Below, in pieces: positions 1 to 61,200 of a stretch of DNA of 64,000 bases. The notes under the pieces were generated by a model that ran no database searches, had not been told where the DNA came from, and worked only from the letters and a program-made list of their open reading frames with translations. Within the stretch, counting starts at the first letter, position 1; the number at the start of each line of letters is the position of its first letter. Both the position numbers and the translations under genes were made by a program. Origin of the DNA: an uncultured Thermoanaerobaculia bacterium (GTDB lineage: Bacteria > Acidobacteriota > Thermoanaerobaculia > Gp7-AA8); contig CAZLGP010000232.1 of NCBI GenBank assembly GCA_964558905.1, positions 34,824 through 98,823 on the forward strand, in the 5' to 3' direction.

Positions 1-1254
1 CGCGAAGGCGTGCCCGGTCCAGTGTTCCTCGAGCTGCCCATCGATCTTCTCTATGACGAGGCGCTCGTGCGGGAGTGGTTCGGCAAATCCGGCGGCGGCA
101 ACCGGCTCGTGCAGTGGTACCTGCGACGCTACCTGCGGCGCCTTTTCGCCGGTGAGGCGAGTCTGCCCTCGCCGCGAGATGTCGCCACCGACGCGCCGAG
201 CGACGCGCCCGTGCGCAACGTCTCCGAGCGCCTCGCGAGCGCCGAGCGTCCCGTGATCGTCGCCGGAAGTCAGGCCGCCTTGTCAGACGTTCCGCGTGCC
301 CTCGAGCAACTCGGTGTGCCGGTCTATCTCTCCGGCATGGCTCGCGGGCTGCTCGGCGCCGGGCATCCGCTGCAGATGCGGCATCGCCGGAAGAACGCAC
401 TGCGCGAGGCGGATCTGGTGATCCTCGCCGGCGTCCCGATGGACTTCCGTTTGAACTACGGACGCGACATCGGCTCGGGCGCCGTGTTGATCTCCTCCAA
501 CCGCAGCGCGGTCGATCTGAAGAAGAATCGCCGGCCCGACGTGGCGATTCATGCCGATCCGGGAGCATTCCTCCGTCGACTCGCGCAGGTGGCGACGACC
601 CGCGATCGCAGCGAGTGGATCTCCGTCCTGCGCCGCGCCGATGAAGAGCGCGAGCGCGAGATCGCTGCCAGCGCCGAGGAGCCGACCGAGCATCTCAATC
701 CGGTCGCGCTCTGCCGTGCGATCGAGCGGGCCATGGGTCCCGACAGCATCGTCGTCGCGGACGGCGGCGACTTCGTCTCCACCGCCTCCTACATCGTCCG
801 TCCGCGCGGGCCGCTGTCGTGGCTCGATCCCGGTCCGTTCGGCACCCTCGGCGTCGGCGCGGGTTTCGCGATCGGCGCCGGTGCCGCACGACCGGGGAGC
901 GAGTTGTGGATCCTCTACGGCGACGGTGCGCTCGGTTTCACGCTCGCCGACTTCGACACGCTCGCGCGGCACCGCATCGGCGCGATCGCAGTCGTCGCGA
1001 ACGACGCCTGCTGGTCGCAGATCCACCGCGAGCAGGTGGAAATCCTCGGCGACGACACCGCGTGCATGCTCACCCGCGCCGACTATCACCTCGCCGCCCA
1101 AGGCCTCGGCGGCCGCGGCCTGCTGCTGCAGGACGCATCCGCGATCGACGCTACGCTCGCCGAGGCGAAGCGCATCGCGGCCACGGGAGTGCCGGTGTTG
1201 GTGAACGCCTGGGTGGGGCGCACGGGGTTCAGGAAGGGCGCGATCTCGATGTAG
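1..1254 (+). CDS. Thiamine-diphosphate-dependent enzyme (acetolactate synthase / oxalyl-CoA decarboxylase-like), 5'-truncated by window edge
   Basis: ORF 10..1254 contains only central and C-terminal TPP domains, so the gene starts upstream of the window. TPP-binding region ILYGDGALGFTLADFDTLARHRIGAIAVVANDACW. Stop TAG 1252-1254 is also the first unit of the adjacent 9-mer array. Confidence 0.8.
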   Translation, partial: REGVPGPVFLELPIDLLYDEALVREWFGKSGGGNRLVQWYLRRYLRRLFAGEASLPSPRDVATDAPSDAPVRNVSERLASAERPVIVAGSQAALSDVPRALEQLGVPVYLSGMARGLLGAGHPLQMRHRRKNALREADLVILAGVPMDFRLNYGRDIGSGAVLISSNRSAVDLKKNRRPDVAIHADPGAFLRRLAQVATTRDRSEWISVLRRADEEREREIAASAEEPTEHLNPVALCRAIERAMGPDSIVVADGGDFVSTASYIVRPRGPLSWLDPGPFGTLGVGAGFAIGAGAARPGSELWILYGDGALGFTLADFDTLARHRIGAIAVVANDACWSQIHREQVEILGDDTACMLTRADYHLAAQGLGGRGLLLQDASAIDATLAEAKRIAATGVPVLVNAWVGRTGFRKGAISM

Positions 1255-1293
1255 GACGGATAGGACGGATAGGACGAATAGGACTCATAGGGA
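1252..1293. repeat. 9-mer tandem array A (TAGGACGGA-type, direct units only)
   Basis: Units TAGGACGGA TAGGACGGA TAGGACGAA TAGGACTCA TAGGGA. The first TAG is the stop of the TPP gene. The fourth unit carries the stop of the minus-strand four-helix-bundle gene. Confidence 0.85.
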
Positions 1294-1823
1294 GCGGTGA
1301 CGTTTTCTTTCGCGGGTCATTCGCTCGCGGATGCCGCCTTTCTCGAGAAACGCCTGCTCGAGATGACGGAGTTGTCGATCGAGCAGATAGTTCGCCTGGT
1401 GGATCAGGCAGATCGCGATGTTCGCGATGACATCAGCGGATCGTGTTTCGGCGAACGTGCCGAAGACCCCGTACGACTGCCCTCGGAGATCCCGAACGTA
1501 CTGCGCTTCTCGAGAGTCTTTGCTCCACTGCCTCAGGTTGCGGACGCGCAGGTAGCCTCGTAGTCCACCCGGAGCTCTTCGAGGCTGGCGCGCGCAACGC
1601 TCGTGAGCTTGATCTCCGTCTCGGTCGATGTTCCGGAGGCCTGGCTTGCCTCCGCGATGTTCTGCTTGCCGGAGCGGGCCGCCTGGATCATCTGGTCCAC
1701 GGTGCGGTCGCGTCTCTCGAGGAAGCGAGCGCAGAAGCGGACCGTGAGGTCATACACGATCTCTGCCTTCTTATACGAGATGAGCTTCCGGTAACCGCCG
1801 TGTCTTGGGATGAAACCGCTCAT
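1285..1823 (-). pseudogene. Four-helix-bundle suffix-domain protein (23S rRNA IVS protein-like family), frameshifted
   Basis: Track ORF 1533..2042 from Met74 (ATG 1823) reads GGYRKLISYKKAEIVYDLTVRFCARFL..DQMIQAARSGKQNIAEASQASGTSTETEIKLTSVARASLEEL. The expected family C-terminus (NIAICLIHQANYLLDRQLRHLEQAFLEKGGIRERMTRERK) continues in another frame down to a stop near 1285. This implies a 1-nt indel near 1553. Confidence 0.65.
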
Positions 1824-1874
1824 GCAGTCGAGACTACCTCGGATCGAGCGAGCGAAGCGTTTGGCTACAGGGGG

Positions 1875-1993
1875 TAGATGGGACGAATGGGACGGATGGG
1901 ACCCATGGGACCTATGCGACCCATGGGTAGCTACCATCCCATAGGTCCCATTCGTCCCATTCGTCCCATAGGTCCCATGGTCCCATTCGTCCC
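1875..1993. repeat. 9-mer inverted array B (hairpin)
   Basis: About six forward units (ATGGGACGA, ATGGGACGG, ATGGGACCC...), centre GGTAGC|TACC at ~1931, then about seven reverse-complement units (ATAGGTCCC, ATTCGTCCC...). Confidence 0.85.
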
Positions 1994-2008
1994 CGTGGTG
2001 GTGCTGGC

Positions 2009-2485
2009 TCACTCCGTGGGATCGACCTTCCTCTCCAGACACAGCCGCGGCGCGGGCTCGAATCCTTCGCTGCGGAGGAACGCCAGTAGCTCGAAGTGGC
2101 TCCAGTCGACTTCCGTCCGGATCGAGGTGGCACCGATGGCGCCGACGTTGCGGCGCAACTGCTCGAAGAGCTCGTGGGCGATGCGGGTGCGACGCATGCC
2201 GGCTTCGACGCCGATGGCGTCGATCGATGCTGTCGGCTCGGTCATCCCGTACTCGCCGTAGTAGAGGGACCCGATGAGGTAGCCGACGACGCGGCCGTCG
2301 ACTTCGGCGACGAGGGAAATCTGGAGGCCAGCGAACTGCAGCGCGCGCTGGAGCATGAGCTCGAAGTAGCGAGGTCGCGCGCGCCCCGTGGCGGCGGCGT
2401 CGATGCGGACGACGGCATCGATGTCGCTGTCGCGCATGAGCCGGATGGTGGCGATCTCGGTTTCAGGTTGATCGATGGTGGTCAT
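2009..2485 (-). CDS. GNAT family N-acetyltransferase
   Basis: Track ORF 2009..2566 trimmed to Met28 (GGAG just upstream). The discarded N-terminus is translated heptamer repeat (PPTANRQPPT). GNAT core VVGYLIGS...IDAIGVEAGMRRTRIAHELFEQL. Confidence 0.8.
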   Translation of the reverse strand: MTTIDQPETEIATIRLMRDSDIDAVVRIDAAATGRARPRYFELMLQRALQFAGLQISLVAEVDGRVVGYLIGSLYYGEYGMTEPTASIDAIGVEAGMRRTRIAHELFEQLRRNVGAIGATSIRTEVDWSHFELLAFLRSEGFEPAPRLCLERKVDPTE

Positions 2486-2500
2486 GGTGGCTCCTCGATG

Positions 2501-2607
2501 GGTTGGCGGTTGGCGGTTGGCGGTTGGCGGTTGACGGGCGTCCGTTGCTGAGTCTGGCGGGTGCATCCGCTGCGTCCCTTACTCCCGCCAACCGCCAACC
2601 GCCAACC
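2501..2607. repeat. Heptamer inverted array H1
   Basis: Left arm (GGTTGGC)x4 plus GGTTGAC at 2501-2537, ~47-nt spacer, right arm (GCCAACC)x3 at 2585-2607. Lies between the GNAT start and the SDR stop. Confidence 0.85.
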
Positions 2608-2610
2608 AGT

Positions 2611-3336
2611 TCATAGGCTCTGTCCCGCGTCGACCCGGAGGGTCTGGCCGGTGATGCGCCGGCCGCCGGCTCCGCACAGAAACACGACCGACGCGGCGAC
2701 GTCCTCGGGCTCGACGAGCTCGCCGAGAAGTGTTTCCGCGAGGGCTTGCTGGCGCACGGGCTCGGGATAGGTCTCGGTGAGTGGCGTGCGTACCCAGCCC
2801 GGCTCGATGACGTTGACGGTGATGCCGAGGCGACCGGTCTCGCGGCTGACGCTCTTGGCGAGGCCGAGCAGTCCGGCTTTGCTCGCGGCGTAGGCGGACG
2901 TGCCGAATTTTCCGCGGGAGCCGTTGATCGAGCCGATCAGGACGATGCGACCGCTTCCGGCCGCGCGCATCGCGGGGATCACGCTGCGCAGGAGCAGGAA
3001 CGCGCCGCGCAGGTTCACGTCGTGGACGAGGTCCCAATCGTCGACGGAGAGTTTCCAGACGACTCCGTCCCGCGAAACGCCCGCGGTGTGCACGGCGATG
3101 TCGATGCGGCCGTGCGCATCGAGCACCTGAGCTACAGCGCGCGCGACGGAGTCGGCGTCGCGAACGTCGCAGAAGACCGAGGATGGTTGACGGTTGGCGG
3201 TTGGCGGTTGGCGGGGGTCCACGACATCGAGGTTGACGACGGTCGCACCGGACGCGGTGAGTGCATCGAGGATTGCGCGGCCGATGCCGCCGCTGCCGCC
3301 GGTCACGACTGCGACGCGCCCGGCGAGATCGCTCAT
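2611..3336 (-). CDS. Short-chain dehydrogenase/reductase (FabG/BadH-like), translationally coupled to bcrD
   Basis: Track ORF 2611..3774 trimmed to MSDLAGR (ATG 3336; GGAG upstream; ATGA overlap with bcrD stop at 3333-3336). Motifs VTGGSGGIGRA, S..YAASKAG, NVIEPG. Residues 41-52 are encoded by a heptamer repeat. Confidence 0.85.
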   Translation of the reverse strand: MSDLAGRVAVVTGGSGGIGRAILDALTASGATVVNLDVVDPRQPPTANRQPSSVFCDVRDADSVARAVAQVLDAHGRIDIAVHTAGVSRDGVVWKLSVDDWDLVHDVNLRGAFLLLRSVIPAMRAAGSGRIVLIGSINGSRGKFGTSAYAASKAGLLGLAKSVSRETGRLGITVNVIEPGWVRTPLTETYPEPVRQQALAETLLGELVEPEDVAASVVFLCGAGGRRITGQTLRVDAGQSL

Positions 3337-4244
3337 GCGACGCTCCTCCGCGCCAGCACCTCGTGCCGATATGCGCCCCACAGCGCGGCGCCCAGGGCGC
3401 CGGCGTAGATCGCACGCGGATCGGTGACGATCTCCATCTGCAGCTTCTCCTCGGCCGCCTTCTCGCGCAGTGCCTTGGCCAGTCCCACGTCGGCGGAGAG
3501 CCCTCCCGTGATCGCTACCGTTCCCTCCGCGCCGATCGAGCGCAGCAGTTTGAGGTATCGCCCGGCCATCGAGAGGTGGATGCCCTTGAGGATGTCGTGC
3601 GTCTTGATGCCGCGGCTGACCATGTTGATCACGTCTGTCTCCGCGAGCACCGCGCAGATGCTGCTGACCATCTCCGGATCGGACGCGCTGCAGGACAGCG
3701 GCCCGATGTCCTCGAGGGTGATGCCGAGGTAGCGCGCAACGTTCTCGAGGAACTGTCCCGATCCCGACGCGCACTGACTGGTCATGCGGTACGCGAGGAC
3801 GCGGCTCTTGTCGTCCATCTTCAGCGCGCGTGCGTGCAGCGCACCGATGTCGAGCGCGGCGCGCGCGTCGGGCATGAGGAAGATCGCGCCGCGCGCATGC
3901 GTGGTCATCCCGTAGAAATGGCCGCGGCGAAACTCCACGAGCTCGCCCTCGCCGGTCGTTGCCAGATAGGCGACGTCGCTATTTTGAATTCCCGCGTCAG
4001 TGAGCGCGGCCTCCCACGATTCTTCGATGACCTTGCGCAGATCGCGGCGGCGGATGCGATCGGTGCGCATCGCGAGGACGTGGGTGTCATCCCGAGCGTC
4101 GAGCGAGGGACCTGGGTGGGTGGCGCGCGAGGCGCCTTCTTCGCGCCCCGCCAGCCCAGGTCCCTCGCTCATGCTCGGGATGACACGTGTGATGACAGTC
4201 TTTACGCTGCTCGAGCCGACGTCCATGCCCGCGGTGATGATCAT
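3333..4244 (-). CDS. bcrD: Benzoyl-CoA reductase subunit D-like (BcrAD_BadFG ATPase)
   Basis: Motifs MIITAGMDVGSSSVKTV, MTSQCASGSGQFLENVARYLG, AVLAETDVINMVSRG, GALGAALWGA. Last gene of bcrCBAD order. 4-nt overlaps with bcrA (4241-4244) and the SDR gene. Confidence 0.8.
   Translation of the reverse strand: MIITAGMDVGSSSVKTVITRVIPSMSEGPGLAGREEGASRATHPGPSLDARDDTHVLAMRTDRIRRRDLRKVIEESWEAALTDAGIQNSDVAYLATTGEGELVEFRRGHFYGMTTHARGAIFLMPDARAALDIGALHARALKMDDKSRVLAYRMTSQCASGSGQFLENVARYLGITLEDIGPLSCSASDPEMVSSICAVLAETDVINMVSRGIKTHDILKGIHLSMAGRYLKLLRSIGAEGTVAITGGLSADVGLAKALREKAAEEKLQMEIVTDPRAIYAGALGAALWGAYRHEVLARRSVA
4084..4185. repeat. REP-like palindromic element inserted in frame in bcrD
   Basis: 102 nt (34 codons). 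TGTCATCCCGAGC..GAGCGAGGGACCTGGG arm, ~38-nt loop, reverse-complement arm ending GCTCGGGATGACA. Encodes VIPSMSEGPGLAGREEGASRATHPGPSLDARDDT. Termini match the intergenic TGTCATCCTGAGC REPs at 18.9, 31.0 and 47.5 kb. Confidence 0.8.
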
Positions 4245-5563
4245 GCTGCCTTCCTCTCCGCCGCGCGACGCGCGAACAGCGCGGCGCCGAGGGCGCCGGT
4301 GTAGATGGAGTCCGCCGAGATATTGAGCGCGCGCTCGCCGTAGTTCTCGCGCACGAGCTCCTCGAGCGCGCCGACCGCCGCGGGGTTCTTGGCCACGCCG
4401 CCGGTGAAGGTGAACTGATCGTGGATGCCACCCGAGCGAGCGAGGAGCGACATCGCCCGCAGGATGATCGCGCGGTGCAGGCCGGCGAGGATGTCTTCGC
4501 GCTTCTGGCCGAGAGACAGCCGCTCGCGCAGTTCCGCGCCGGCGAACACGGTGCAGGTGCTGTTGATCTTGACGCGCGTGTGGCTCTCCTGCGCCAGCGG
4601 GCCGAGCTCGTGCAGGCCGAGGTTCATCTCGTCGGCGATGTATCCGAGGTAGCGGCCGCAGCCGGCGGCGCAGCGGTCGTTCATCTGGAAGCTCGTGACG
4701 ATACCCGCCGCATCGACCTGGATCGCCTTCGTGTCCTGGCCGCCGATGTCGAGCACCGTGCGCGTGCCGGGGAACATCGCGTGCGCGCCGAGTCCGTGGC
4801 AGAGGATCTCGCTGCGGATCTGTTCCTTGGGGAAGGGCAGCCGCGCGCGCCCGTAGCCTGTGCCGACGGTGCTGACTTCGACGAGCTCGGTCGCGCGAGC
4901 GCGCTCCACCGCCGCGCGCAGGCGCGCATCGCTCGACGTCTCATCGAGCGCGGCGCCGATGTGTTTCTGGAACGCGTTTTCGATCGTCAACGCCTCGACG
5001 GAGAGGATCGCCGCGTCGAAAACGCCGCAGAGCGCGTCGAAGCTGATGCCCTTCGGATCCGCCGCTGCTTCCGCGAGCAGCATGTAATCGGAGGAGGCGA
5101 GGTCGCGGAAGAAATCGCTCTTGCGCGTGGCTCCCGGCGCGAAATGCTGCCGTCCAAGCGCGGCCATGGAATCGCAGATCGTGTCGAGGATCGACCGCAG
5201 CTCCTGCGCGTGCGCGGCGTGCTTCGGACCGCCCGCGAGCATGAGCATCGCCTCGCGCAAGCGGTCCAGCTGCGCGAGGTGCTGGTGCATCTTGAAATTC
5301 CGCTCGAGGTCCGCGAGGGGATCAGTTGACAGTTGACCGTTCGCAGTTGGCAGGAGCTCCTGTCGACTGTCAACTGACAACTGCCGACTGATCATCGTGA
5401 ACCGCGTCCGGACGAACGCCTCCTCGCGCACGATCTGCGCGGCGACGTCGTAGTTGCTGCGGCTGTTCGTGATGCCGCGGCCGATCAGGTCGCCGTTGCC
5501 GTCGAGAACGACCGCCTTCGTCGTCGTGGAGCCGAGGTCGATGCCGAGGAAGACCTCCATCAC
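4241..5563 (-). CDS. bcrA: Benzoyl-CoA reductase subunit A-like (BcrAD_BadFG ATPase)
   Basis: Motifs FLGIDLGSTTTKAVVLD, VLDIGGQDTKAI, MNDRCAAGCGRYLGYIA, FTGGVAKNPA. 4-nt overlaps with bcrB and bcrD. Confidence 0.8.
   Translation of the reverse strand: MMEVFLGIDLGSTTTKAVVLDGNGDLIGRGITNSRSNYDVAAQIVREEAFVRTRFTMISRQLSVDSRQELLPTANGQLSTDPLADLERNFKMHQHLAQLDRLREAMLMLAGGPKHAAHAQELRSILDTICDSMAALGRQHFAPGATRKSDFFRDLASSDYMLLAEAAADPKGISFDALCGVFDAAILSVEALTIENAFQKHIGAALDETSSDARLRAAVERARATELVEVSTVGTGYGRARLPFPKEQIRSEILCHGLGAHAMFPGTRTVLDIGGQDTKAIQVDAAGIVTSFQMNDRCAAGCGRYLGYIADEMNLGLHELGPLAQESHTRVKINSTCTVFAGAELRERLSLGQKREDILAGLHRAIILRAMSLLARSGGIHDQFTFTGGVAKNPAAVGALEELVRENYGERALNISADSIYTGALGAALFARRAAERKAA
5321..5393. 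repeat. Inverted heptamer element inserted in frame in bcrA
   Basis: GATC-AGTTGAC-AGTTGAC-CGTTCGC-AGTTGGC-AGG / AGCTC / CCT-GTCGACT-GTCAACT-GACAACT-GCCGACT-GATC. Encodes ISRQLSVDSRQELLPTANGQLSTD. Confidence 0.8.
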
Positions 5564-6880: not shown

Positions 6881-6986
6881 TAGGACGAATGGGACCTATA
6901 GGACGAATAGGACGAATAGGTAGCTGCCTATTCGTCCTATGGTCCTATTCGTCCTATTCGTCCTATTCGTCCTATTCGTCCTATAG
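6881..6986. repeat. 9-mer inverted array C (hairpin) inside the bcr operon
   Basis: TAGGACGAA TGGGACCTA TAGGACGAA TAGGACGAA, centre TAGGTAGCTGCCTA, then (TTCGTCCTA)x~6. Occupies almost the entire 133-nt bcrC-bcrB spacer. Confidence 0.9.
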
Positions 6987-16470: not shown

Positions 16471-16554
16471 CGGTTGGCAGTTGACGGTTGGCGGTTGGCG
16501 GGAGACCGCAAGCGCCCGTCGTTCCACCGCCAACCGCAACCAGCAACCGCCAAC
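16471..16554. repeat. Heptamer inverted array H4
   Basis: CGGTTGG CAGTTGA CGGTTGG CGGTTGG CGG, 23-nt spacer, CCACCGCCAACCGCAACCAGCAACCGCCAAC. Starts 2 nt after the GNAT stop. Confidence 0.85.
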
Positions 16555-29577: not shown

Positions 29578-29800
29578 GCGGTTGGCGATTGGCGGTTGGC
29601 GGTTGGCGGAGATGAGGATGAGCGCCGCATCTGACCTGCTCGGCCGACCGGCTCCGCCACCCGCCAACCGCCAACCGGAGTCAGTGATGTACCAGGAGCC
29701 ACCTGCCGGCAGCGCGGATGTCTGGAAAACCGGAGAGGGATGCGCGCCGTACCTGACCTGCTCCGCCAACCGCCAACCGCCAACCGCCAACCGCCAACCG
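29578..29800. repeat. Heptamer inverted array H5 with tandemly duplicated right arm
   Basis: Left arm GCGGTTGGCGATTGGCGGTTGGCGGTTGGCGG at 29578-29609. Right arm CCGCCACCCGCCAACCGCCAACCGG at 29654-29678. Second right arm (CGCCAAC)x5 at 29763-29800. Confidence 0.85.
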
Positions 29801-33758: not shown

Positions 33759-34490
33759 ATGACCTGGATCGATGTGGCCACCTGGGCCACCCTCGGGATG
33801 TTGCCCCTGTTTCTCATCCTCGACGCCTTCTATCGCGCGCGGAAATACGACACGCCGCGTTTCTGGCGCGTGCGCGCGCTGGCGGTGGCGATCGTCGCGT
33901 TCGCTCTCTCGTTCGCGGTGCCGATGGTGTGGGCGCGCCTGCTCGGCGGGTGGACTCTGTTCGACCTCTCATTCCTCGGCATCGCCGGCGGCGCGGTCGT
34001 GGGCATCCTCATCTACGAGCTCGGGCACTACTGGTACCACCGCACCGTGCATCGCAACGATCAGCTCTGGCTGGCGTTCCACCAGATGCATCACAGCCCG
34101 GAGAGCCTCGACGCCTGGGGCGCGTACTACCTCGCGCCGACGGACGTGATCGGCTTCGTCACGCTGCAGACGCTCATCTTTGGACCGCTCCTCGGTCTGC
34201 CGGTGGGCGCCGTGGTGATCGGAAGCCTGTTCCTGACCTTCAACGCCGTGTTCCAGCATGCGAACCTGCGGACGCCGCGCTGGCTGGGCTACATCATTCA
34301 ACGGCCGGAGAGCCACGGTATCCACCACGAGCGCGGCGTGCACGCGTACAACTACAGCGACCTTCCGCTGTGGGACATGATCTTCGGCACGTACCGCAAC
34401 CCGGAGAGGTTCGAGGGGAAGGTGGGATTCTGGGATGGCGCGTCGTCGAAGGTGGGAGCGATGTTGCTGGCGAGGGATGTGAGCCGATAG
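33759..34490 (+). CDS. Sterol desaturase / fatty-acid hydroxylase family membrane protein
   Basis: Start MTWIDVATW (Met35). His boxes HYWYHRTVH, HQMHHSPE, HGIHHERG. Stop TAG 34488-34490 is the first unit of a 9-mer array. Confidence 0.8.
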   Translation: MTWIDVATWATLGMLPLFLILDAFYRARKYDTPRFWRVRALAVAIVAFALSFAVPMVWARLLGGWTLFDLSFLGIAGGAVVGILIYELGHYWYHRTVHRNDQLWLAFHQMHHSPESLDAWGAYYLAPTDVIGFVTLQTLIFGPLLGLPVGAVVIGSLFLTFNAVFQHANLRTPRWLGYIIQRPESHGIHHERGVHAYNYSDLPLWDMIFGTYRNPERFEGKVGFWDGASSKVGAMLLARDVSR

Positions 34491-34639
34491 GACGAATGGG
34501 ACGAATGGGACGAATGGGACGAATAGGACGAATGGGACGAATGGGACGAATGGGGAGTCTACCTATCCGTCCTATGGGTCCCATAGGTCCTATGAGTCCC
34601 ATGAGTCCCATGAGTCCCATGGGTCCTATGAGTCCTATC
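34488..34639. repeat. 9-mer inverted array D (hairpin)
   Basis: Seven forward units (TAGGACGAA/TGGGACGAA), centre TGGGGAGTCTACCTA near 34555, then about eight reverse units (TCCGTCCTA, TGGGTCCCA, TGAGTCCCA...). Confidence 0.9.
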
Positions 34640-38810: not shown

Positions 38811-38853
38811 ACCAGTAGCCAGTAGACCCCGCCAACCGCCAACCGCCAACCGG
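38811..38853. repeat. Heptamer array H6 (single arm)
   Basis: ACCAGTAGCCAGTAGACCCCGCCAACCGCCAACCGCCAACCGG, in the divergent intergenic region. Confidence 0.8.
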
Positions 38854-41848: not shown

Positions 41849-42307
41849 ATGCGACAGCTCATCGGATTTCTCGCCCTGACGACGATGATGTGCGCCAGTG
41901 CACCCACGACCGCGCAGACGACGGCAAAACCGGCGCGCGTGGATCGCACGGAAGTGCCGTTCCGCATCGCGACCGCCGAGGTGCAGCGTTTCGAGCGCGC
42001 CTTGCCGTCGCGCAAAGGGGAGTACCGCGAGGCACTCGTGCTGCGCATCGAGGCCGCGGTGGCCGATTACGAAGCGCTGCAGCCCGCGAAGGAGGCCTTT
42101 CTCTACGTAGGCCGCCACGAGCTCCGGCCGATCGATTTCCAGTGGGGGAAAGAACGCGTGATCGTCACGTTCCACGATCCGGAGTGGCGCGAGCTCCGCG
42201 GCGGTGAGCCGATGGTGCTGACGACCGAGCACGGCGAGCCGTTGCGGAATCCGGAGAAGTACCGTCAGGCGCAGCGATTCGACCGCGGGCTGATCGGTAG
42301 CCGGTAG
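41849..42307 (+). CDS. Hypothetical secreted protein
   Basis: In-frame tail of track ORF 40595..42307 from MRQLIGFLALTTMMCASAPTTAQ (signal). 152 aa. Its stop TAG lies inside the heptamer array. Confidence 0.55.
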   Translation: MRQLIGFLALTTMMCASAPTTAQTTAKPARVDRTEVPFRIATAEVQRFERALPSRKGEYREALVLRIEAAVADYEALQPAKEAFLYVGRHELRPIDFQWGKERVIVTFHDPEWRELRGGEPMVLTTEHGEPLRNPEKYRQAQRFDRGLIGSR

Positions 42308-42541
42308 CCGTTGGCGGTTGGCGGTTGGCGGTAGCCGATTGGCGAGGGTACGCACTGGCGATACCGCCCCTCGGCAACGGCTACTGGCTGGCTACTGGCA
42401 AGTGGCTACTGGCTGGCAACCGGCAACTGGCAACTAGCAACTGGCAACTAGCAACTAGCAACTAGCAACTAGCAACTAGCAACCGGCTACTGGCTACTGG
42501 CTACCGCCAACCGCCAACCGCCAACCGTCCACCGCCCACCC
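42297..42541. repeat. Heptamer inverted array H7 with graded unit variants
   Basis: GGTAGCC GGTAGCC GTTGGCG x3 ... spacer ... GCTACTG, GCAACCG, GCAACTG, (GCAACTA)x5, GCTACTG x2, (CCGCCAA)x3. Fills the whole gap between two convergent stops. Confidence 0.9.
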
Positions 42542-43456
42542 CTACGCCAGCGAAGCGGTTGCCCGTCTCAGTACGTCCGCCGACGCGTGGAGCCGCGCGC
42601 GCTCCTCGTCCGACATCTCCGGCTCGATGATCGACGTCGCGCCGTCCACGTCGACGACGGCGGGGAGCGACAGCGCGACGCCGCGGATGTCGCACGCGCC
42701 TTCCTGCACGCGCGACACCGTGAGCACCCGCCGGTCGCCGCGGAGGATGTACTTGAGCAGCGCGGCGGTCACGAGTCCGATGGCGTGATTCGTCGCTCCT
42801 TTGCGTTTGATGATCTCGTACGCGGCCGTGCGCACGCGGCCGGCGATGTTCGCCTCGTGCGTCTGAGTCCAGCCGGGCCAGTTGCGGAGTCCGCGGCCTC
42901 CGATGTTCGCATCGGACCAGAGCACGACCTCGGAGTCGCCGTGCTCGCCGACGACCTGTGCATGGACGGAGCGTGGGTCGACGTGCAGCTGCTGGCCGAG
43001 GATCTGGCGGAGGCGCGCGGTGTCGAGCATCGTGCCGGTCCCGATGACGCGTGACGGCGGCAGCCCCGAGGCCTCGGTCATGACCGCGGTGAGGACGTCG
43101 ACGGGATTCGTGACCATGACGATGATGCCGCGGTATCCGGCGAGCCTTTGGGCGATGCCGCGCACGATCTCGGCGTTGTCGCGCAGCAGGTCTAGGCGAG
43201 ACTCGCCGGGACGTCCGCCGCGTCCGGCGGTGACGACGATTGCGCCGCACTCGCGCATCCCTTCGATCGAGGACGTGCGCACGCTCGCGGGCGGATAGAA
43301 TGGCGCGCCGTGCGCGAGGTCCATCGCGTCCCCCTCGGCGACCTCCTCCCGCACATCGTGCAGGAGCATTTCCGCCGCCACGCCCGCATGAAGCGTGGAG
43401 ATGGCCACGCTCGATCCAACCCAACCCGTGCCGATGATTCCGACGCTCGTTCGCAT
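42542..43456 (-). CDS. ldh: L-lactate dehydrogenase
   Basis: Strings VGIIGTGWVGSS, IVMVTNPVDVLT, VVGEHGDSEVVLWS. 304 aa. Confidence 0.85.
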   Translation of the reverse strand: MRTSVGIIGTGWVGSSVAISTLHAGVAAEMLLHDVREEVAEGDAMDLAHGAPFYPPASVRTSSIEGMRECGAIVVTAGRGGRPGESRLDLLRDNAEIVRGIAQRLAGYRGIIVMVTNPVDVLTAVMTEASGLPPSRVIGTGTMLDTARLRQILGQQLHVDPRSVHAQVVGEHGDSEVVLWSDANIGGRGLRNWPGWTQTHEANIAGRVRTAAYEIIKRKGATNHAIGLVTAALLKYILRGDRRVLTVSRVQEGACDIRGVALSLPAVVDVDGATSIIEPEMSDEERARLHASADVLRRATASLA

Positions 43457-53502: not shown

Positions 53503-53615
53503 TAGGACGGATAGGACGAATGAGACGGATAGGACGAATGGGTAGCCCGGCTACCTATCAGTCCTATCAGTCCTATCAGTCCTATCCGTCCTATCCGTCC
53601 CATCCGTCCCATTCG
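53503..53615. repeat. 9-mer inverted array E (hairpin) in a divergent promoter region
   Basis: TAGGACGGA TAGGACGAA TGAGACGGA TAGGACGAA, centre TGGGTAGCCCGGCTACCTA, then (TCAGTCCTA)x3, TCCGTCCTA x2, TCCGTCCCA x2. Confidence 0.9.
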
Positions 53616-56768: not shown

Positions 56769-56922
56769 TAGGACGGATGGACCGATGGGACGAATGGGAC
56801 CCATGGGACCCATGGGACGAATGGGTAGACCGTTCCACCCATTCGAATAGGATCTATGAGACGAATGGGGAGACCGTTCCACCCATTCGTCCCATGGGTC
56901 CCATGCGTCCCATAGGTCCCAT
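56769..56922. repeat. 9-mer inverted array F with duplicated hairpin centre
   Basis: Six forward units, then GAATGGGTAGACCGTTCCACCCATTCG and GAATGGGGAGACCGTTCCACCCATTCG (two copies of the centre), then four reverse units. Lies between two convergent stops. Confidence 0.9.
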
Positions 56923-56935
56923 CCCCCTCCCCCCT

Positions 56936-57709
56936 TCAGTGCTCGCAGCCCGCTCCGCACCCTCCGCCCGCGAGCGCGAACGCCGGGGTGTTCCCCGCCT
57001 GCTCCTCCATCGCGATCGCGCGGGGGAAGTAGACGTTGTTCTCGATGTGCACGTGCTCGTGCGTGCGCGCTTCGAATTCCGCGAGGCGGCGGTACAGCTC
57101 GCGATAGCTGAAGCAGGCGTCCTGCGGCACCAGGTAGCCGTCCGTGACGCTGCGCAGGCGCGCCAGCAGCTCGCCGACGCGATCGTGCTCGAGCATCATC
57201 ATCCGCACCGGGTTCTTCACCGTGCCGAAGAACGGCGTCGGCGCGGGGGTGCCGGACTCGCGCGCTTCCTCGAGCTGCTCCACGTACGGGAAGAGCACCT
57301 GCTCCTCCTTCAGCATGTGCGGCAGCATGTCGTTCGACAGATCGTGGACCGTCGCCAGAACGACGGCCAGCTCGTCATGGCGGCCACCGTGCACGCCGTA
57401 CACCTTCTCCGCGAGCGGCCGGAGCGTCTCCAGCTCCTCGCGCGTGTAGCGGTGATACGCCTCGCAGATGTGCGCGGCGATGCCCGCGAGCGACTCCTTC
57501 GCCCAGTCTCGGCTCACGTTGTCCGGAACCACGGCAGCCATCTCCAGCGCACGGATGAACTCGTCGACGCTCTTCCCCGCCGCCGCGCACGCGTCCGGCA
57601 GCGGCGTCATCCCGCCGCAGCAGTAATCGATCTTCCAGGCCTCGAAGATCCGGATCGAGACCGGGACATCGGCGGCAAGCTCGCCAACAGTACGTTCGTG
57701 CATGTTCAT
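56936..57709 (-). CDS. ytfE: Iron-sulfur cluster repair di-iron protein (RIC/YtfE/ScdA family)
   Basis: ScdA_N string WKIDYCCGG. Hemerythrin-like HxxxE/H motifs (HMLKEEQVLFP, MMLEHD, HEHVHIENNVYFP). Unusual Cys/Gly tail GGGCGAGCEH. Confidence 0.85.
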   Translation of the reverse strand: MNMHERTVGELAADVPVSIRIFEAWKIDYCCGGMTPLPDACAAAGKSVDEFIRALEMAAVVPDNVSRDWAKESLAGIAAHICEAYHRYTREELETLRPLAEKVYGVHGGRHDELAVVLATVHDLSNDMLPHMLKEEQVLFPYVEQLEEARESGTPAPTPFFGTVKNPVRMMMLEHDRVGELLARLRSVTDGYLVPQDACFSYRELYRRLAEFEARTHEHVHIENNVYFPRAIAMEEQAGNTPAFALAGGGCGAGCEH

Positions 57710-57782
57710 GTGTGTTTCCTCCGTAGGTCGTGATTGTCGGAGGTCGCGCGGCCCGCGGCTATGACGGAAGTCATGGGGGGAG

Positions 57783-58195
57783 GCGGTTGGCGGTTGGCGG
57801 TGGCCGGTTTCCCGTGGCCGGTTGCCCGTTGCCCGTGGCCCGTGGCCGGTGGCCAGTTGCCCGTGGCCGGTTGCCCGTGGCCCGTGGCCGGTTGCCCGTT
57901 GCCGGTTGCCGGTTGCCAGTGGCCGGTTGCCAGTTGCCAGTTGCCAGTTGACAGTGCCGGTGGCCAGTTGCCAGGAAGGTGCCGGGCGTGGCGCGCGAAG
58001 GCGCGCCGTACAATCTGGCCCCGGGCTCTGCCCGGGGTCGGGGTTAGATTGGATTGCGCGCCTTCGCGCGCATCACCGCACCGCCTTCGTCGACGCCGGG
58101 CCCACTACTGGCAACCGGCAACTGGCAACTGGCAACCGGCCACTGGCAACTGGCAACTGGCAACCGGCCACTGGCAACTGGCAACTGGCCACTAT
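57783..58195. repeat. Giant heptamer inverted array H8 (about 27 units left, about 13 units right, ~130-nt core)
   Basis: Left arm 57783-57974 has units GGTTGGC, GGTGGCC, GGTTGCC, CGTGGCC, AGTTGCC and others. The core contains GGCGCGCGAAGGCGCGCC. Right arm 58103-58195 has units ACTGGCA, ACCGGCA, ACCGGCC. Confidence 0.9.
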
Positions 58196-58273
58196 CGGCA
58201 AGATCTCTCACTCGATTCCGCTCCGGTGGTGTATGTTGACCCATAAGTCGCTATCCGCTGCAAGGAGTCGCCA

Positions 58274-61200
58274 GTGCTGAATACCTTCCGTCGTGCCCTC
58301 AGGACTGTGGCCGTTTCCTTTTTTCTCGCTGCCGCCCTCACCGCGGCCGCCCAGTCCGACGTCGACATCGAAAAGTTCACGAACGGCCAGAACGCGGACA
58401 CCGCGCCCGGGCCCGGCGTCATCGTCGGCTCCACCGTCAACTGGACCTACGTCGTCACCAACACCGGCAGCCGTCCGCTGACCGACATCGAGGTCACCGA
58501 CGATCAGGGCGTCGTCGTCACCTGTCCCGCGACCACCCTCGGCGCCGGCGAGTCCTTCAACTGCACTGCCAGCGACGTCGCGATCGCCGGCCAGTACGCG
58601 AACATCGGCACCGTCATGGCCACGCTGCCCGACGCCAGCGAGGTCACGGACTCCGACCCCAGCCACTACTTCGGCCAGGCCGCACCGGCGGTCACCATCG
58701 AGAAGCACACCAACGACGAGGACGCGGACACGGCCCCCGGTCCCTCCCTCCCGGTCGGCAGCACCGTCGACTGGACCTACGAGATCACCAACATCGGCAC
58801 CGAGGACCTCATTGAGATCGTCGTGACCGACGATCAGGGAGTCAGTGTCAGCTGCCCCGGGACGGATCTCGCCCCCGGCGCGTCGATGACCTGCACTGCG
58901 TCCGGCATCGTGCAGCCCGGGCAATACATGAATCTCGGCACCGTCGAGGCCTTGCTCCCCGATGAGAGCGGCGTCGTCGCCTCCGACCCCAGCCACTACT
59001 ACGGGCAGACACTCGAGCTCATCAAGCGTACGAACGGCGTCCAGGCACCCGGGCCGCCCGGACCGACGGTCGCCCCCGGCTCCACCGTCAACTGGACCTA
59101 CGAGGTCACCAACCCCGGCCCGGCCACCGTCACCGGGCTCTCGGTCACCGATGACCAGGGCGTCGTCGTCACCTGCTCCCAGGCAACACTGGCGGCCGGG
59201 GAAAGCGTGACCTGCACGGCCAGCGGCCCCGCCATCGCCGGCCAGTACGCCAACGTCGGCACCGCCACCGCCACCCTCCCCCTCGGCGGCGTGATCACCG
59301 TCAACGACGCCAGTCACTATTTCGGCAACCCGATCGCCATCGAGAAATCGACGAACGGTGTCGATGCCGACACGCCGCCCGGAGTCGCGGTGCCTCCCGG
59401 CGATCCCGTGACCTGGACGTACGAGGTCACGAACCTCGGCAGCGATCCGCTCACCGACGTCACCGTCACCGACGACCAGGGCGTCACCGTCACCTGCCCG
59501 CAGACGACGCTCGCCGCCGGCGAGTCGATGACCTGCACGGCGAACGGCATCGCCATCGCCGGCCAATACGCCAACCTCGGCACGGTCGAAGGCACGCTGC
59601 CCTCGACCGCCACGGTCTCCGCATCCGACCCGAGCCACTACTTCGGCCAGGACACGAGCATCGACTTCGGCGACGCGCCGGATCCGACCTACCAGACCCT
59701 CCTCGCCTCGAACGGCGCGCGGCACATCCTCGGCGGCACGCTTTTCCTGGGACAGTGCGTCGACGCCGAGGCCGACGGCCTCCCGAGCGCCGCGGCCGAT
59801 GGCGACGATCTCGACGCCGGTCCCGTTTTCGGCACCTGCGCCGTGGCCGGCGACGACGAAGACGGCGTGACCTTCACCTCCGACCTTCGCACCGGCTTCA
59901 CCGCCGGCGTCGACGTCGTCGCGTCCGAACCGTGCACCCTGTCCGCGTGGATCGACTTCAACGGCGACGGCGACTGGGGAGACCCCGACGACGATCTCTT
60001 CCCCGGCGGGACGGCACTCCTCGCGGGCACGAATTCGCTGACCTTCAATGTCCCCGCAGGCGCGACTCCCGGAGCCTCCTTCGCGCGCTTCCGCTGCACC
60101 ACGGACGGCGCCGTCGGCTTCACCGGCGAGGCGAGCGACGGCGAGGTCGAGGACTACGCCGTCACGATCATCGTGCCCACTCCCGCGGTCGGCGCGACCA
60201 AGGATGACGCTCTGCTCGTCGACGGCGACAGCGACGGACTCGCCGATCCCGGCGACACGCTCCGCTACACCATCGTCATCACCAACAACGGCACCGGCGA
60301 CGCCACCTCCGTCGTCTTCAACGACACCCCCGACCCGAACACCGCCCTCGTCGTCGGCTCCGTCACCACCACCGCCGGCACGGTGACCACCGGCAACACC
60401 GCCGGCGACACCACCGTCGCTGTCGACGCCGGAACGCTCGCCGCGTACGGCGGGTCCGTGACCATCACCTTCGACGTCGTCGTCGACGACCCCCTCGCGG
60501 CCGGCGTGACCGAGGTGTCGAACCAGGGGAGCGTGAGCGGCGCGAACTTCAGCACCGTCGCGACGAACACGGTCGTCACGCCCATCAACCGCACGCCCGA
60601 TGTCACCGCGACGAAAGACGACGCTCTGCTCGTCGACGGCGACAGCGACGGACTCGCCGACCCGGGCGACACGCTCCGCTACACCATCGTCATCACCAAC
60701 AACGGCACCGGCGACGCCACCTCCGTCGTCTTCAGCGACACCCCCGACCCGAACACCGCCCTCGTCGTCGGCTCCGTCACCACCACCGCCGGCACGGTGA
60801 CCACCGGAAACACCGCCGGCGACACCACCGTCGCCGTCGATGCCGGAACGCTCGCCGCGTACGGCGGGTCCGTGACCATCACCTTCGACGTCGTCGTCGA
60901 CGACCCCCTCGCATCCGGCGTGACCGAGGTGTCGAACCAGGGGAGCGTGAGCGGCGCGAACTTCAGCACCGTCGCGACGAACACCGTCGTCACGCCCATC
61001 AACCGCACGCCGATCGTCAGTGCGACGAAGACCGCCGAGCTGCAGAACGACCAGGAGACCCTTCGCTACACCATCATCATCACCAACAGCGGCACCGGCG
61101 ACGCCACCGGCATCATGTTCGACGACACGCCCGATCCGAACACCTCGATCGTCATCGGCTCGGTCACGACGACCCAGGGAACGGTCACCTCCGGCAACAC

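What the first reader, a model, noticed from the sequence alone, without database searches (positions are those of the whole stretch)
42297..42541. Family of degenerate heptamer repeats (NGTNGNC; GGTTGGC prototype) in inverted arrays at eight or more loci
Seen: arrays lie at 2501-2607, 3183-3216 (in CDS), 5321-5393 (in CDS), 16471-16554, 29578-29800, 38811-38853, 42297-42541 and 57783-58195. Units keep G2, T3, G5 and C7 while other positions vary (GGTTGGC, AGTTGAC, GGTTGCC, CGTGGCC, GGTAGCC, TAGTTGC). Most loci have a forward block and a reverse-complement block separated by 20-130 nt. In the 42.3-kb array the units change stepwise along the array (GCTACTG, GCAACCG, GCAACTG, GCAACTA x5, GCTACTG, GCCAACC), as if generated by local slippage plus mutation. 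The array occupies the complete gap between two convergent stop codons, and the upstream stop TAG lies inside a unit. Established analogy: heptanucleotide STRR repeats of heterocystous cyanobacteria. In addition, the GGTTGG-N-GGTTGG spacing is that of two-tetrad G-quadruplex formers such as the thrombin-binding aptamer GGTTGGTGTGGTTGG. Inference: the G-rich strand could form G4 while the paired arms form hairpins or cruciforms. Function is unknown.
Basis: partly seen in the sequence, partly recalled or inferred. Interest (0 to 1): 0.65.

Follow-up and report, generated by a model that had tools for sequence, protein, structure and literature searches.

The report
Heptamer-armed hairpin repeats at gene ends
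The flagged stretch is a real, overgrown copy of a widespread, fast-changing family of hairpin-forming 7-base repeats that lodge at the ends of bacterial genes; this repeat class has been in print for years and its purpose is still unknown.

Summary
All eight loci hold tandem heptamers of consensus R-G-T-T-G-S-C, far above chance: 13 runs against 0.04 expected. Six loci are inverted pairs and two are single arms.

At 42.3 kb the element fills the whole gap between a small secreted-protein gene and a convergent ldh, and it supplies both TAG stops. It folds into a long stem with 27 perfect pairs. Its right arm has overgrown to 24 units.

It is young. One relative has only 13 nt at this site, four ldh orthologues have no array, and a 91%-identical strain carries different units there.

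Elsewhere the family has a canonical build: four units, a GGGAG...CTCCC core, then four inverse units. It sits 0-6 nt after stop codons, and empty sites show it arrives as a whole hairpin.

The G-rich arm is always 5'. Public metagenomes hold 65 G-first elements and none C-first. The rule also holds for 55 of 55 hairpins with any repeat unit.

G-quadruplex folding is not the unifying feature. The hairpin wins energetically, and units without GG (AGAGCGC) build the same four-unit hairpin at the same sites.

This is the acidobacterial member of a known, unexplained class: Xanthomonas GGGAATC pairs, Geobacter paired repeats, cyanobacterial STRR and PF05635 intervening-sequence (IVS) cassettes. 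Its function was not shown. It is most likely selfish or neutral DNA that acts as an RNA 3'-end hairpin.

The parts
41849..42307 (+). Small secreted-protein gene (152 aa, no Pfam family). Its last codons (LIGSR) and its TAG stop (42305-42307) are encoded by heptamer units.
   Evidence: Relatives without the array end in MIRD*, MIRN* or MIR*.
42296..42343 (.). Left G-rich arm, 7 units: GGTAGCC GGTAGCC (G)TTGGC GGTTGGC GGTTGGC GGTAGCC GATTGGC.
42344..42378 (.). 35-nt spacer with a small inner hairpin, GAGGG (42344-42348) paired with CCCTC (42368-42372). This is the local version of the family's GGGAG...CTCCC core.
42379..42484 (.). Surplus part of the right arm. It is C/A-rich on the + strand (GGCTACT, GGCAACT and GCAACTA x5) and has no partner in the left arm. 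It is unpaired in the + RNA and self-pairs through G-U in the - RNA. TAG occurs on both strands.
   Evidence: The copy number of the GCAACTA run is not verifiable at k=31.
42485..42540 (.). Part of the right arm that pairs with the left arm. It contains the perfect 27-nt inverted repeat 42499-42525, which pairs with 42310-42336.
42542..43456 (-). L-lactate/malate dehydrogenase gene. Its stop codon (CTA on the + strand, 42542-42544) is 1 nt from the array. It has one extra Ala codon compared with orthologues.
2501..2607 (.). Family member: (GGTTGGC)4 GGTTGAC, a 44-nt loop, then (GCCAACC)3. It lies between the benzoyl-CoA cluster and a GNAT gene, both on the - strand.
3185..3212 (.). Single arm lying in frame inside an SDR gene. 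The sense strand reads GCCAACC and encodes ...PRQPPTANRQPSS...
5324..5389 (.). Complete small hairpin (AGTTGAC-type units) lying in frame inside a bcrA-like gene. It adds 24 aa.
16472..16554 (.). Canonical family member: GGTTGGC AGTTGAC GGTTGGC GGTTGGC, GGGAGACC..., then the inverse arm. It starts 2 nt after the TGA of a GNAT gene and lies between convergent genes.
   Evidence: One independent unitig spans it with 0 differences.
29580..29799 (.). One G arm (29580-29607) and two C arms (29656-29676 and 29765-29799, the result of a local duplication) in a divergent control region. The last C arm ends 9 nt before the methyltransferase ATG (29809); the GGAG Shine-Dalgarno follows it directly.
38831..38851 (.). 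Single C-rich arm, (GCCAACC)3, in a divergent region. It is C-rich on the sense strand upstream of the + gene.
57785..58193 (.). Largest member: about 27 units (GGTTGCC, CGTGGCC, AGTTGCC), a 134-nt GC-rich core with its own palindrome, then 13 inverse units. It lies between divergent genes.
   Evidence: One search gives -315.6 kcal/mol, z -12. No promoter-like site was found.

Best explanation
The 42.3-kb array is a young, overgrown copy of a dispersed family of foldback (hairpin) elements whose arms are tandem heptamers.

Shown here:
- The canonical build is four units (RGTTGGC GGTTGAC GGTTGGC GGTTGGC), a short core GGGAG...CTCCC around a variable 8-25-nt centre, then the inverse arm.
- The G-rich arm is always 5', a property that reads the same on both strands.
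- Elements sit directly on or 0-6 nt after stop codons. Less often they sit before starts or in frame inside genes.
- Empty orthologous sites show that a whole hairpin appears at once.
- Afterwards arms grow, shrink and are even replaced by another unit family at the same site.
- At this locus the element arose after a merR gene was lost between the two genes. It replaced both native stops with its own TAGs, and its right arm expanded to 24 units.

Inferred:
- The element is selfish or neutral DNA that persists because it is harmless at gene ends.
- In either convergent transcript it folds into a long perfect stem without a U tract.
- That stem would act as a 3'-end protective hairpin or an RNase III substrate, as in the intervening sequences of 23S rRNA that have the same build. 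It would not act as a G-quadruplex.

How copies are made, and why the G arm always comes first, is not known.
For: Reality and family.

Hairpin.

Youth at this site:
- L119 (small protein 89% identical) has only 13 nt between the convergent stops.
- The ldh orthologues L120-L123 (82-90% identical) have no array.
- L121 still has merR between the two genes.
- L113 (91% identical) has an array with other units.

Polarity:
- 29 G-first against 0 C-first among (GGTTGGC)3 hits in species genomes.
- 55 against 0 for hairpins of any unit with period 7-9.
- In 241 million metagenome records, the C-first pattern gives 0 stretches and the G-first pattern gives 65.

Canonical arm and core: unit number peaks at 4 (47 of 120 arms), and 37 of 60 loops start with GGAG.

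Position: typically 0-6 nt after the upstream stop. Contexts are co-directional 25, convergent 6, divergent 4. After a stop the G strand is sense in 23 against 6 cases. Before a start the C strand is sense in 13 against 2.

Insertion as a unit: L171 is filled where L132 has an overlapping TGATG stop/start. L179 is filled where L154 has an ordinary 57-nt spacer.

Rapid change: the close relatives L138 and L163 differ in loop and unit number.

Link to intervening-sequence (IVS) cassettes: PF05635 genes lie inside such arms in L039 (E 2.9e-35) and L166 (E 4.2e-35).

Literature: Rehm 2015 (PMC4692102) reports the same rules for GGGAATC repeats, with function unknown. Geobacter has paired four-unit sites (PMC2700814). 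STRR hairpins are described in PMC2670836. RNase III cuts the heptamer-bearing IVS stem (PMC4990558).
Against: No enzyme, target-site duplication or movement was seen.

The REP hallmark GTAG is at the boundary in only 5 of 120 arms.

Several orthologous sites stay occupied across flanks that are only 74-85% identical. Some carry a different unit family with the same four-unit build (GGTTGGC against AGAGCGC). That fits a selected hairpin or a dedicated rewriting process better than plain junk DNA.

The absolute polarity has no demonstrated cause.

No RNA data exist for this organism. The one RNA run found for a cultured carrier was uninformative. The RNA role is therefore inference only.

At 42.3 kb itself the alignment with the empty relative cannot distinguish insertion from growth on both sides of the old spacer.

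Confidence: 0.6

Rival explanations
1. The element is a selected bidirectional transcript-end device. The hairpin was recruited because the two convergent genes need a terminator, an insulator or an mRNA-stabilising 3' structure, and comparable hairpins are kept after stop codons for that reason.
For: The element fills the convergent gap exactly. Elements hug stop codons. Orthologous sites stay occupied across diverged flanks even when the arm sequence is swapped. In Xanthomonas, transcripts start or stop at such repeats more often than at controls (PMC4692102). The STRR literature proposes transcript stability or translational coupling (PMC2670836).
Against: There is no U tract and no terminator-like site. 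Close relatives manage with 13 nt or with no array. The same family also sits in divergent promoter regions and in frame inside enzymes. An insertion split an overlapping stop/start pair. No RNA evidence exists.
Confidence: 0.2
2. The arrays are G-quadruplex elements. The GGTTGG-N-GGTTGG arrays would fold into two-tetrad G4s in DNA or RNA and regulate nearby genes, competing with the hairpin.
For: An isolated G arm is predicted to form a two-layer G4. Related G-rich heptamers (GGGAATC, GGGGAYT) form G4s in vitro and show the same four-unit preference and positions (PMC4692102). The G arm is made first, so a transient G4 is possible.
Against: The hairpin outcompetes the G4 by 40-150 kcal/mol in every full element. 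Units such as AGTTGCC and GGTAGCC, the 9-mers, and AGAGCGC lack G tracts yet follow the same build, polarity and four-unit mode.
Confidence: 0.06
3. The arrays are protein-binding sites. The tandem units would be bound, one unit per subunit, by an oligomeric protein. The obvious candidate is the pentameric four-helix-bundle PF05635/Avd-like protein found inside some elements. That protein would maintain, move or rewrite the arms.
For: PF05635 genes are enclosed by the same kind of arms (L039, L166). Unit positions 2, 3, 5 and 7 are fixed and the others are free. The number of units is sharply peaked. Arm families are swapped as blocks at one site while the core is kept. The S23p protein is a homopentamer (PMC4990558). 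The Geobacter authors proposed global-regulator binding (PMC2700814).
Against: The mode is 4 units, not 5. Most elements carry no gene. At least a dozen unrelated units share the same build. No binding data exist.
Confidence: 0.1
4. The array is an assembly artefact or a chance low-complexity stretch.
For: Unitigs break inside the GCAACTA run, and depth over the array is 70-100 times that of the flanks.
Against: Both junctions, and the whole 16.47-kb element, are reproduced by an independent assembler. A second soil sample holds a related strain with an array at the same site. The enrichment statistics are extreme.
Confidence: 0.02

Closest known systems
G-rich heptamer repeats of Xanthomonas (GGGAATC) and Nostoc (GGGGA(C/T)T), Rehm et al. 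2015, PMC4692102
   Same: Seven-base tandem units with a preference for four units. 70-75 inverted pairs per genome, always in convergent (G-first) orientation. Located within 50 bp after the stop on the coding strand, or before the start on the non-coding strand, and sometimes overlapping the stop. Length varies between relatives. Function unknown.
   Different: The unit here is RGTTGSC with only GG tracts or none, so three-tetrad G4s are impossible. The host is Acidobacteriota. Here a conserved GGGAG...CTCCC core, empty sites and arm-family swaps were seen.
STRR (short tandemly repeated repetitive) heptamers of filamentous cyanobacteria, for example the hupS-hupL hairpin (PMC2670836)
   Same: Seven-base tandem repeats that form intergenic hairpins of unknown function. 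Proposed roles are transcript stability or translational coupling.
   Different: Different phylum and different units. From my memory, the STRR3 unit CAACAGT read on the other strand is TGTTGAC, one base from the AGTTGAC unit seen here; this was not checked in a paper.
Paired tandem-repeat sites of Geobacter metallireducens (classes 1-3: GTTGCTYN x4, TCTCCGTS x3, MTYCTGA x5), PMC2700814
   Same: Three to five tandem 7-9-nt units, on opposite strands, with variable spacing and tens of copies per genome. The GTTGC core resembles AGTTGCC.
   Different: They were annotated as putative global-regulator (IHF/HU) binding sites. Polarity and dynamics were not analysed.
23S rRNA intervening sequences carrying an S23p/PF05635 ORF (Coxiella, Leptospira), PMC4990558
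   Same: A long stem of inverted termini containing variable tandem heptamers. RNase III cuts within the stem. The same protein family lies inside GGTTGGC-type arms in L039 and L166.
   Different: The flagged element has no ORF, is not in rRNA, and no excision was shown.
REP/BIME/REPIN elements with RAYT transposases
   Same: Dispersed extragenic palindromes lying just after genes. They occur as inverted doublets that form hairpins and have roles in mRNA stabilisation.
   Different: The arms here are tandem heptamers, and the GTAG hallmark is absent (5 of 120 arms). The whole sequence is not conserved between copies. No RAYT gene could be sought.
TAACTGA direct repeats of marine Beggiatoaceae (MacGregor 2015, PMC4679880)
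   Same: Heptamer arrays placed directly at gene boundaries and shared across phyla. One fetched locus (L019) has (TAACTGA)3 abutting an ATG beside a GGTTGKC arm.
   Different: They are almost all direct repeats, not hairpins, and contain stops in all frames.

Membership tests
Polar G-rich heptamer repeats (Rehm 2015 class) | Tandem units of 7 nt, enriched far above chance | tested here: met
Polar G-rich heptamer repeats (Rehm 2015 class) | Inverted pairs always in convergent (G-first) orientation | tested here: met
   29:0, 55:0, and 65 against 0 in metagenomes.
Polar G-rich heptamer repeats (Rehm 2015 class) | Close to the stop on the coding strand, or to the start on the non-coding strand | tested here: met
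   23:6 and 13:2. Distances are 0-6 nt. Gene calls were crude.
Polar G-rich heptamer repeats (Rehm 2015 class) | Preference for four units | tested here: met
   Mode of 4 in 120 arms. Window arms are mostly 3-5 units.
Polar G-rich heptamer repeats (Rehm 2015 class) | G tracts of 3 or more G that form stable G4s | tested here: not met
   Units have GG at most, and many have none. The hairpin dominates.
Cyanobacterial STRR | Heptamer tandem repeats forming intergenic hairpins | tested here: met
   and PMC2670836.
Cyanobacterial STRR | Cyanobacterial host and the STRR1-3 unit sequences | tested here: not met
   Relatives are Thermoanaerobaculia/Acidobacteriota. The unit is RGTTGSC. The STRR unit sequences are from my memory.
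PF05635 intervening-sequence cassette | Long stem made of inverted termini with tandem heptamers | tested here: met
   and PMC4990558.
PF05635 intervening-sequence cassette | PF05635 ORF in the loop | tested here: not met
   The spacer at 42.3 kb is 35 nt with no ORF. The feature is met only in the relatives' loci L039 and L166.
PF05635 intervening-sequence cassette | Excision by RNase III | not testable with these tools
   No RNA runs were found.
REP/BIME/REPIN | Conserved GTAG at the 5' side of each palindrome | tested here: not met
   5 of 120 arm boundaries.
REP/BIME/REPIN | Cognate RAYT gene in the genome | not testable with these tools
MITE | Terminal inverted repeats plus a target-site duplication | tested here: not met
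   No duplication at the filled/empty pairs L171/L132, L179/L154 or window/L119.
Intrinsic terminator | GC-rich stem followed by a U tract | tested here: not met
   No terminator-like site in 42200-42650 or 57650-58330.
Rfam RNA families | Match at the gathering score | tested here: not met
   0 matches in the window.

The most novel reading that the evidence does not exclude
Heptamer-armed hairpins may be products of a dedicated, still unknown writing process and not of passive slippage. In this reading a conserved core hairpin (GGGAG...CTCCC) at a gene end is given arms of about four units. The arms are rewritten in both halves together: GGTTGGC, AGAGCGC and GGGTGTT alternate at one orthologous site. 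The newly made G-rich strand always runs 5'->3' toward the centre, as 3'-end repeat addition on both sides of a break or hairpin would give. The pentameric Avd-like PF05635 protein, found inside some elements, would be the cognate partner. This would define a new kind of self-homogenising genetic element spread across many bacterial phyla.
Probability: 0.12. Interest if true: 0.8.

Novelty: new member of a known kind. Interest (0 to 1): 0.35.

Why it matters
Heptamer repeats are the commonest long simple repeats in many bacterial genomes and have had no accepted function or origin since STRR was first described. This case adds no new class. It does give unusually clean facts that any explanation must fit:
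- an absolute, strand-symmetric G-first polarity (65 against 0 in public metagenomes);
- a four-unit arm with a conserved core;
- arrival of whole hairpins at overlapping stop/start junctions;
- replacement of one arm family by another at the same site;
- the same unit in Acidobacteriota, Steroidobacteraceae, Gemmatimonadota, Bacteroidota and Desulfobacterales.

For annotation, such elements rewrite gene ends. Both stop codons here come from the repeat, and the elements also insert in frame into enzymes.

Tried and rejected
No whole-genome census, no replication-strand test, and no search for RAYT, RNase III or Rho genes was possible.
- Rfam gave no hit.
- The sigma-70 promoter and terminator scans found nothing in the two largest elements.
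- No RNA run exists for this organism. A rhizosphere RNA run for Povalibacter held only low-depth contigs of relatives and said nothing about RNA ends.
- The REP-like GTAG boundary was rejected (5 of 120).
- A target-site duplication was not seen.
- Viral contigs gave only 7 hits, all single arrays, so no phage vector is evident.
- No paper in the library contains GGTTGGCGGTTGGC or its complement.
- The global alignment of the window with the empty relative L119 put the old spacer in the loop region. The match (8 of 9 nt) is within chance, so I do not claim growth on both sides of the old spacer.
- I considered Rho avoidance as the cause of polarity: a C-rich arm made first would be naked RNA. 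It is untested. The one cyanobacterial hairpin in my sample (L083, Tychonema) is also G-first, although from my memory cyanobacteria lack Rho, which weakens the idea.
- I also considered a resemblance to integron attC cores (RYYYAAC/GTTRRRY). It does not fit the unit or the polarity.
Full report
**Observation**

(GGTTGGC)3 with up to three mismatches occurs 26 times against none in shuffles. Runs of three or more NGTNGNC number 13 (78 units) against 0.04 in simulations.

I parsed 113 units, all read in the G orientation. G2 occurs in 109, T3 in 109, G5 in 110 and C7 in 104, giving the consensus R-G-T-T-G-S-C. The parser accepted only 7-mers matching at least 3 of these 4 positions, so the counts partly reflect that rule; almost all of each array parsed.

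Six loci have a G-rich block followed by its reverse complement. Two loci (3185-3212 and 38831-38851) are single arms. Two loci lie in frame inside genes: an SDR reads ...PRQPPTANRQPSS..., and a bcrA-like gene gains 24 aa. A second family of 9-mers, of the TAGGACGAA type, has the same layout at six other places.

**The flagged locus**

The + gene 41849-42307 encodes a 152-aa secreted protein with no Pfam family. The - gene 42542-43456 is an L-lactate/malate dehydrogenase. The 234 nt between their stops consists of three parts:
- a left arm of 7 units (42296-42343);
- a 35-nt spacer with a small GAGGG/CCCTC hairpin;
- a right arm of 24 units (42379-42540).

The TAG of the small gene lies inside a GGTAGCC unit. 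The ldh stop is 1 nt from the last unit.

The arms share a perfect 27-nt inverted repeat, 42310-42336 with 42499-42525. The variant unit GGTAGCC sits at the same place in both arms. As RNA the region folds at -137 kcal/mol on the + strand (z -5.4) and -158.5 kcal/mol on the - strand (z -8.5).

The surplus 106 nt of the right arm (GGCTACT, GGCAACT, GCAACTA x5) has no partner in the left arm. It is unpaired in the + RNA and self-pairs through G-U in the - RNA. There is no U tract and no promoter-like or terminator-like site.

**Reads**

A soil metagenome run (X1) holds the whole stretch. Its k=31 unitigs match both flanks and the array exactly. They break inside the 40-nt perfect GCAACTA run, so that copy number is unverified. 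One unitig spans the 16.47-kb element with no difference.

Word depth over (GGTTGGC)n is 700-4300 against about 10 on the flanks. The same heptamers are therefore very common in that soil community. No RNA run holds the locus.

**History of the site**

Homologues of the small protein and of ldh led to related contigs.
- In the 79%-identical relatives (L116, L117) the small gene is followed after 41 nt by merR.
- In L121, merR lies between the small gene's homologue and ldh.
- In L119 (89% identical) merR is gone, and only 13 nt (CGCGAACGCGCGC) separate the two convergent stops.
- The ldh orthologues L120-L123 have no array after their stop.
- L113 (91% identical, from another soil sample) has an array at the same place. 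It starts with AGTAGCC and AGTGGCC units before GGTTGGC.
- Proteins at array-free sites end in MIRD*, MIRN* or MIR*. At filled sites they end in LIGSR* or LIGAQ*.

The array is therefore a recent gain in this lineage. It overwrote both gene ends and differs between strains. At this one site the alignment cannot distinguish insertion from growth around the old spacer.

**The family elsewhere**

The exact 21-mer (GGTTGGC)3 occurs in more than 112 stretches of species-representative genomes from many phyla. Where a partner arm exists within 400 nt, the G arm is first in 29 cases and the C arm in none. These come from Thermoanaerobaculia and other Acidobacteriota, Steroidobacteraceae, a Gemmatimonadota genome, Puia and a Desulfobacterales genome. 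A further 69 arrays are single.

Hairpins of any unit and period 7-9 in the fetched DNA have G>C in the 5' arm in 55 of 55 cases.

As a direct test I scanned 241 million metagenome records. GCCAACCGCCAACC-N10-40-GGTTGGCGGTTGGC gave 0 stretches. The mirror pattern, with the same bases, gave 65 stretches, of which 60 are unique.

These 60 elements show a canonical build:
- Arm length peaks at four units (47 of 120 arms), typically RGTTGGC GGTTGAC GGTTGGC GGTTGGC.
- 37 loops begin with GGAG and 26 end with CTCC, around a variable centre.
- The outer flanks are not conserved. GTAG, the REP hallmark, is near the boundary in only 5 of 120 arms.

The window's 16.47-kb copy is a textbook example of this build.

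With crude gene calls, elements lie mostly between co-directional genes (25), less often between convergent (6) or divergent (4) genes. They usually start 0-6 nt after the upstream stop or overlap it. After a stop the G strand is sense in 23 cases against 6. Before a start the C strand is sense in 13 against 2. Inside ORFs the C strand is sense in 24 against 8.

All these figures amount to one geometric rule: the G strand runs 5'->3' away from the nearest gene toward the middle of the spacer, whatever the gene's direction.

**Dynamics**

Flank-to-flank comparison among the fetched contigs gave four kinds of result:
- Clean empty sites. L132 has an overlapping stop/start (GAGTGATGCGG) where L171 has TGA-AAACG-[four units, core, four units]-CGTTCTGAGCC-ATG. 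L154 has an ordinary 57-nt spacer where L179 has an 85-nt element. No target duplication is evident. A whole hairpin therefore arrives at once.
- Sites that stay occupied across flanks only 74-85% identical.
- The same site carrying different arm families with the same build. L154 has (GGTTGGC)4-GGGAGC...GGTTCC-(GCCAACC)4 where L179 has (AGAGCGC)4-AGGAGC...GGTTCT-(GCGCTCT)4. L035 and L167 compare with L135 in the same way. L132 (GGTTGGC type) compares with L171 (GGGTGTT type).
- Close relatives (L138 and L163, flanks 91-98% identical) that differ in loop and unit number.

**Cargo**

tblastn across all fetched loci found PF05635 (23S rRNA intervening-sequence protein, weakly bAvd-like) genes inside such arms:
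- L039 (Thermoanaerobaculia): (GGTTGGC)3, a gene of 118 aa (E 2.9e-35), then (GCCAACC)3.
- L166: arms of the GGTTAGC type, with the gene's Shine-Dalgarno AGGAG and its complement CTCCT forming the inner stem, and the stop codon lying in the C arm.

The GGGAG/CTCCC core of the gene-less copies resembles this arrangement. L019 keeps a 35-aa remnant that is not significant in Pfam. The flagged element has no ORF.

**G-quadruplex**

With ViennaRNA's G4 option, a lone G arm forms a two-layer G4 (-9.7 to -11.5 kcal/mol). Every complete element folds as a plain hairpin (-49 to -158 kcal/mol). Units without GG tracts obey the same rules, so G4 is at most transient and is not the common principle.

**What is known**

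- Rehm et al. 2015 (PMC4692102) describe GGGAATC and GGGGA(C/T)T heptamers in Xanthomonas and Nostoc. These have a four-unit preference and 70-75 inverted pairs per genome, always convergent. They lie within 50 bp after the stop on the coding strand or before the start on the other strand. Length varies between species, transcript ends are enriched at the repeats, and no function was found.
- The Geobacter metallireducens genome paper lists paired sites of three to five tandem 7-9-mers on opposite strands (PMC2700814).
- Cyanobacterial STRR hairpins are noted in PMC2670836.
- The Coxiella intervening sequence has a 28-bp stem cut by RNase III, variable heptamers and an S23p ORF (PMC4990558).
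- No paper in the library contains the GGTTGGC tandem.
- Earlier notes of this scan reached the same class assignment and the same polarity rule. I re-tested both here.

**Verdict**

The element is a new member, with a newly defined canonical form, of a known and still unexplained class.

My best reading (0.6) is a selfish or neutral foldback element that inserts at gene ends and then changes fast. At this locus it probably serves as the 3'-end hairpin of both convergent mRNAs and as a likely RNase III substrate.

The absolute polarity, the four-unit arm and the arm swaps are unexplained. They leave room for a dedicated mechanism (0.12).

Noticed in passing
window 1252-1293, 1878-1993, 6881-6984, 34490-34635, 53503-53609, 56779-56922: A second family of 9-mer arrays (TAGGACGAA, ATGGGACGA) is arranged as inverted pairs with the same G-first polarity as the heptamers. 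The ORF between the arrays at 1294-1823 (-) contains stop codons.
   Followed up: partly
L119:2368-2528: In the relative with the empty site, ldh is reduced to a 38-aa in-frame remnant: the N-terminal 18 residues are fused to the C-terminal 20. A (CAGTTGA)n array starts just upstream of it at the contig end.
   Followed up: partly
L114:2990-3420: A stretch of about 450 nt is filled with repeats of GCATGTAC(A/T)ACATGC-like palindromes. It lies between the small-protein gene and a heptamer hairpin upstream of the conserved merR operator. The stretch is absent from L116 and L117.
   Followed up: no
L019:3330-3545: (GGTTGTC)3(GGTTGGC)3 is followed by a 35-aa remnant resembling the start of a four-helix-bundle protein. 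After that come (TAACTGA)3 ending 3 nt before an ATG. TAACTGA is the heptamer described for Beggiatoaceae in PMC4679880.
   Followed up: partly
L154:2580-2653 against L179:9090-9177, and L035/L167 against L135:917-1023: At orthologous sites the four-unit arms are GGTTGGC in one genome and AGAGCGC in another, with a similar GGAGC...GGTTC core. Whole arm families are exchanged at a fixed position.
   Followed up: partly
window 42304-42571 and 16474-16514 (runs X1 and X2): The k-mer depth of (GGTTGGC)n-type sequence in two soil metagenomes is 70 to nearly 500 times that of the flanking single-copy DNA. These heptamers are a sizeable component of the community's DNA.
   Followed up: no
L034:1666-3220: Two divergent, paralogous membrane-protein ORFs each run into a GGTTGGC/GCCAACC array and end in ...DDATANRQP(PT) encoded by it. 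This suggests an inverted duplication bounded by the arms.
   Followed up: no
window 42444-42483: The GCAACTA unit contains CTAG, so this run carries TAG stops in all three frames on both strands.
   Followed up: no
L179:10231-10250: Here the C arm abuts the ATG of the downstream gene with no Shine-Dalgarno. The empty orthologue L154 has GGAGAAC at the usual distance. The insertion may have changed how that gene is translated.
   Followed up: no
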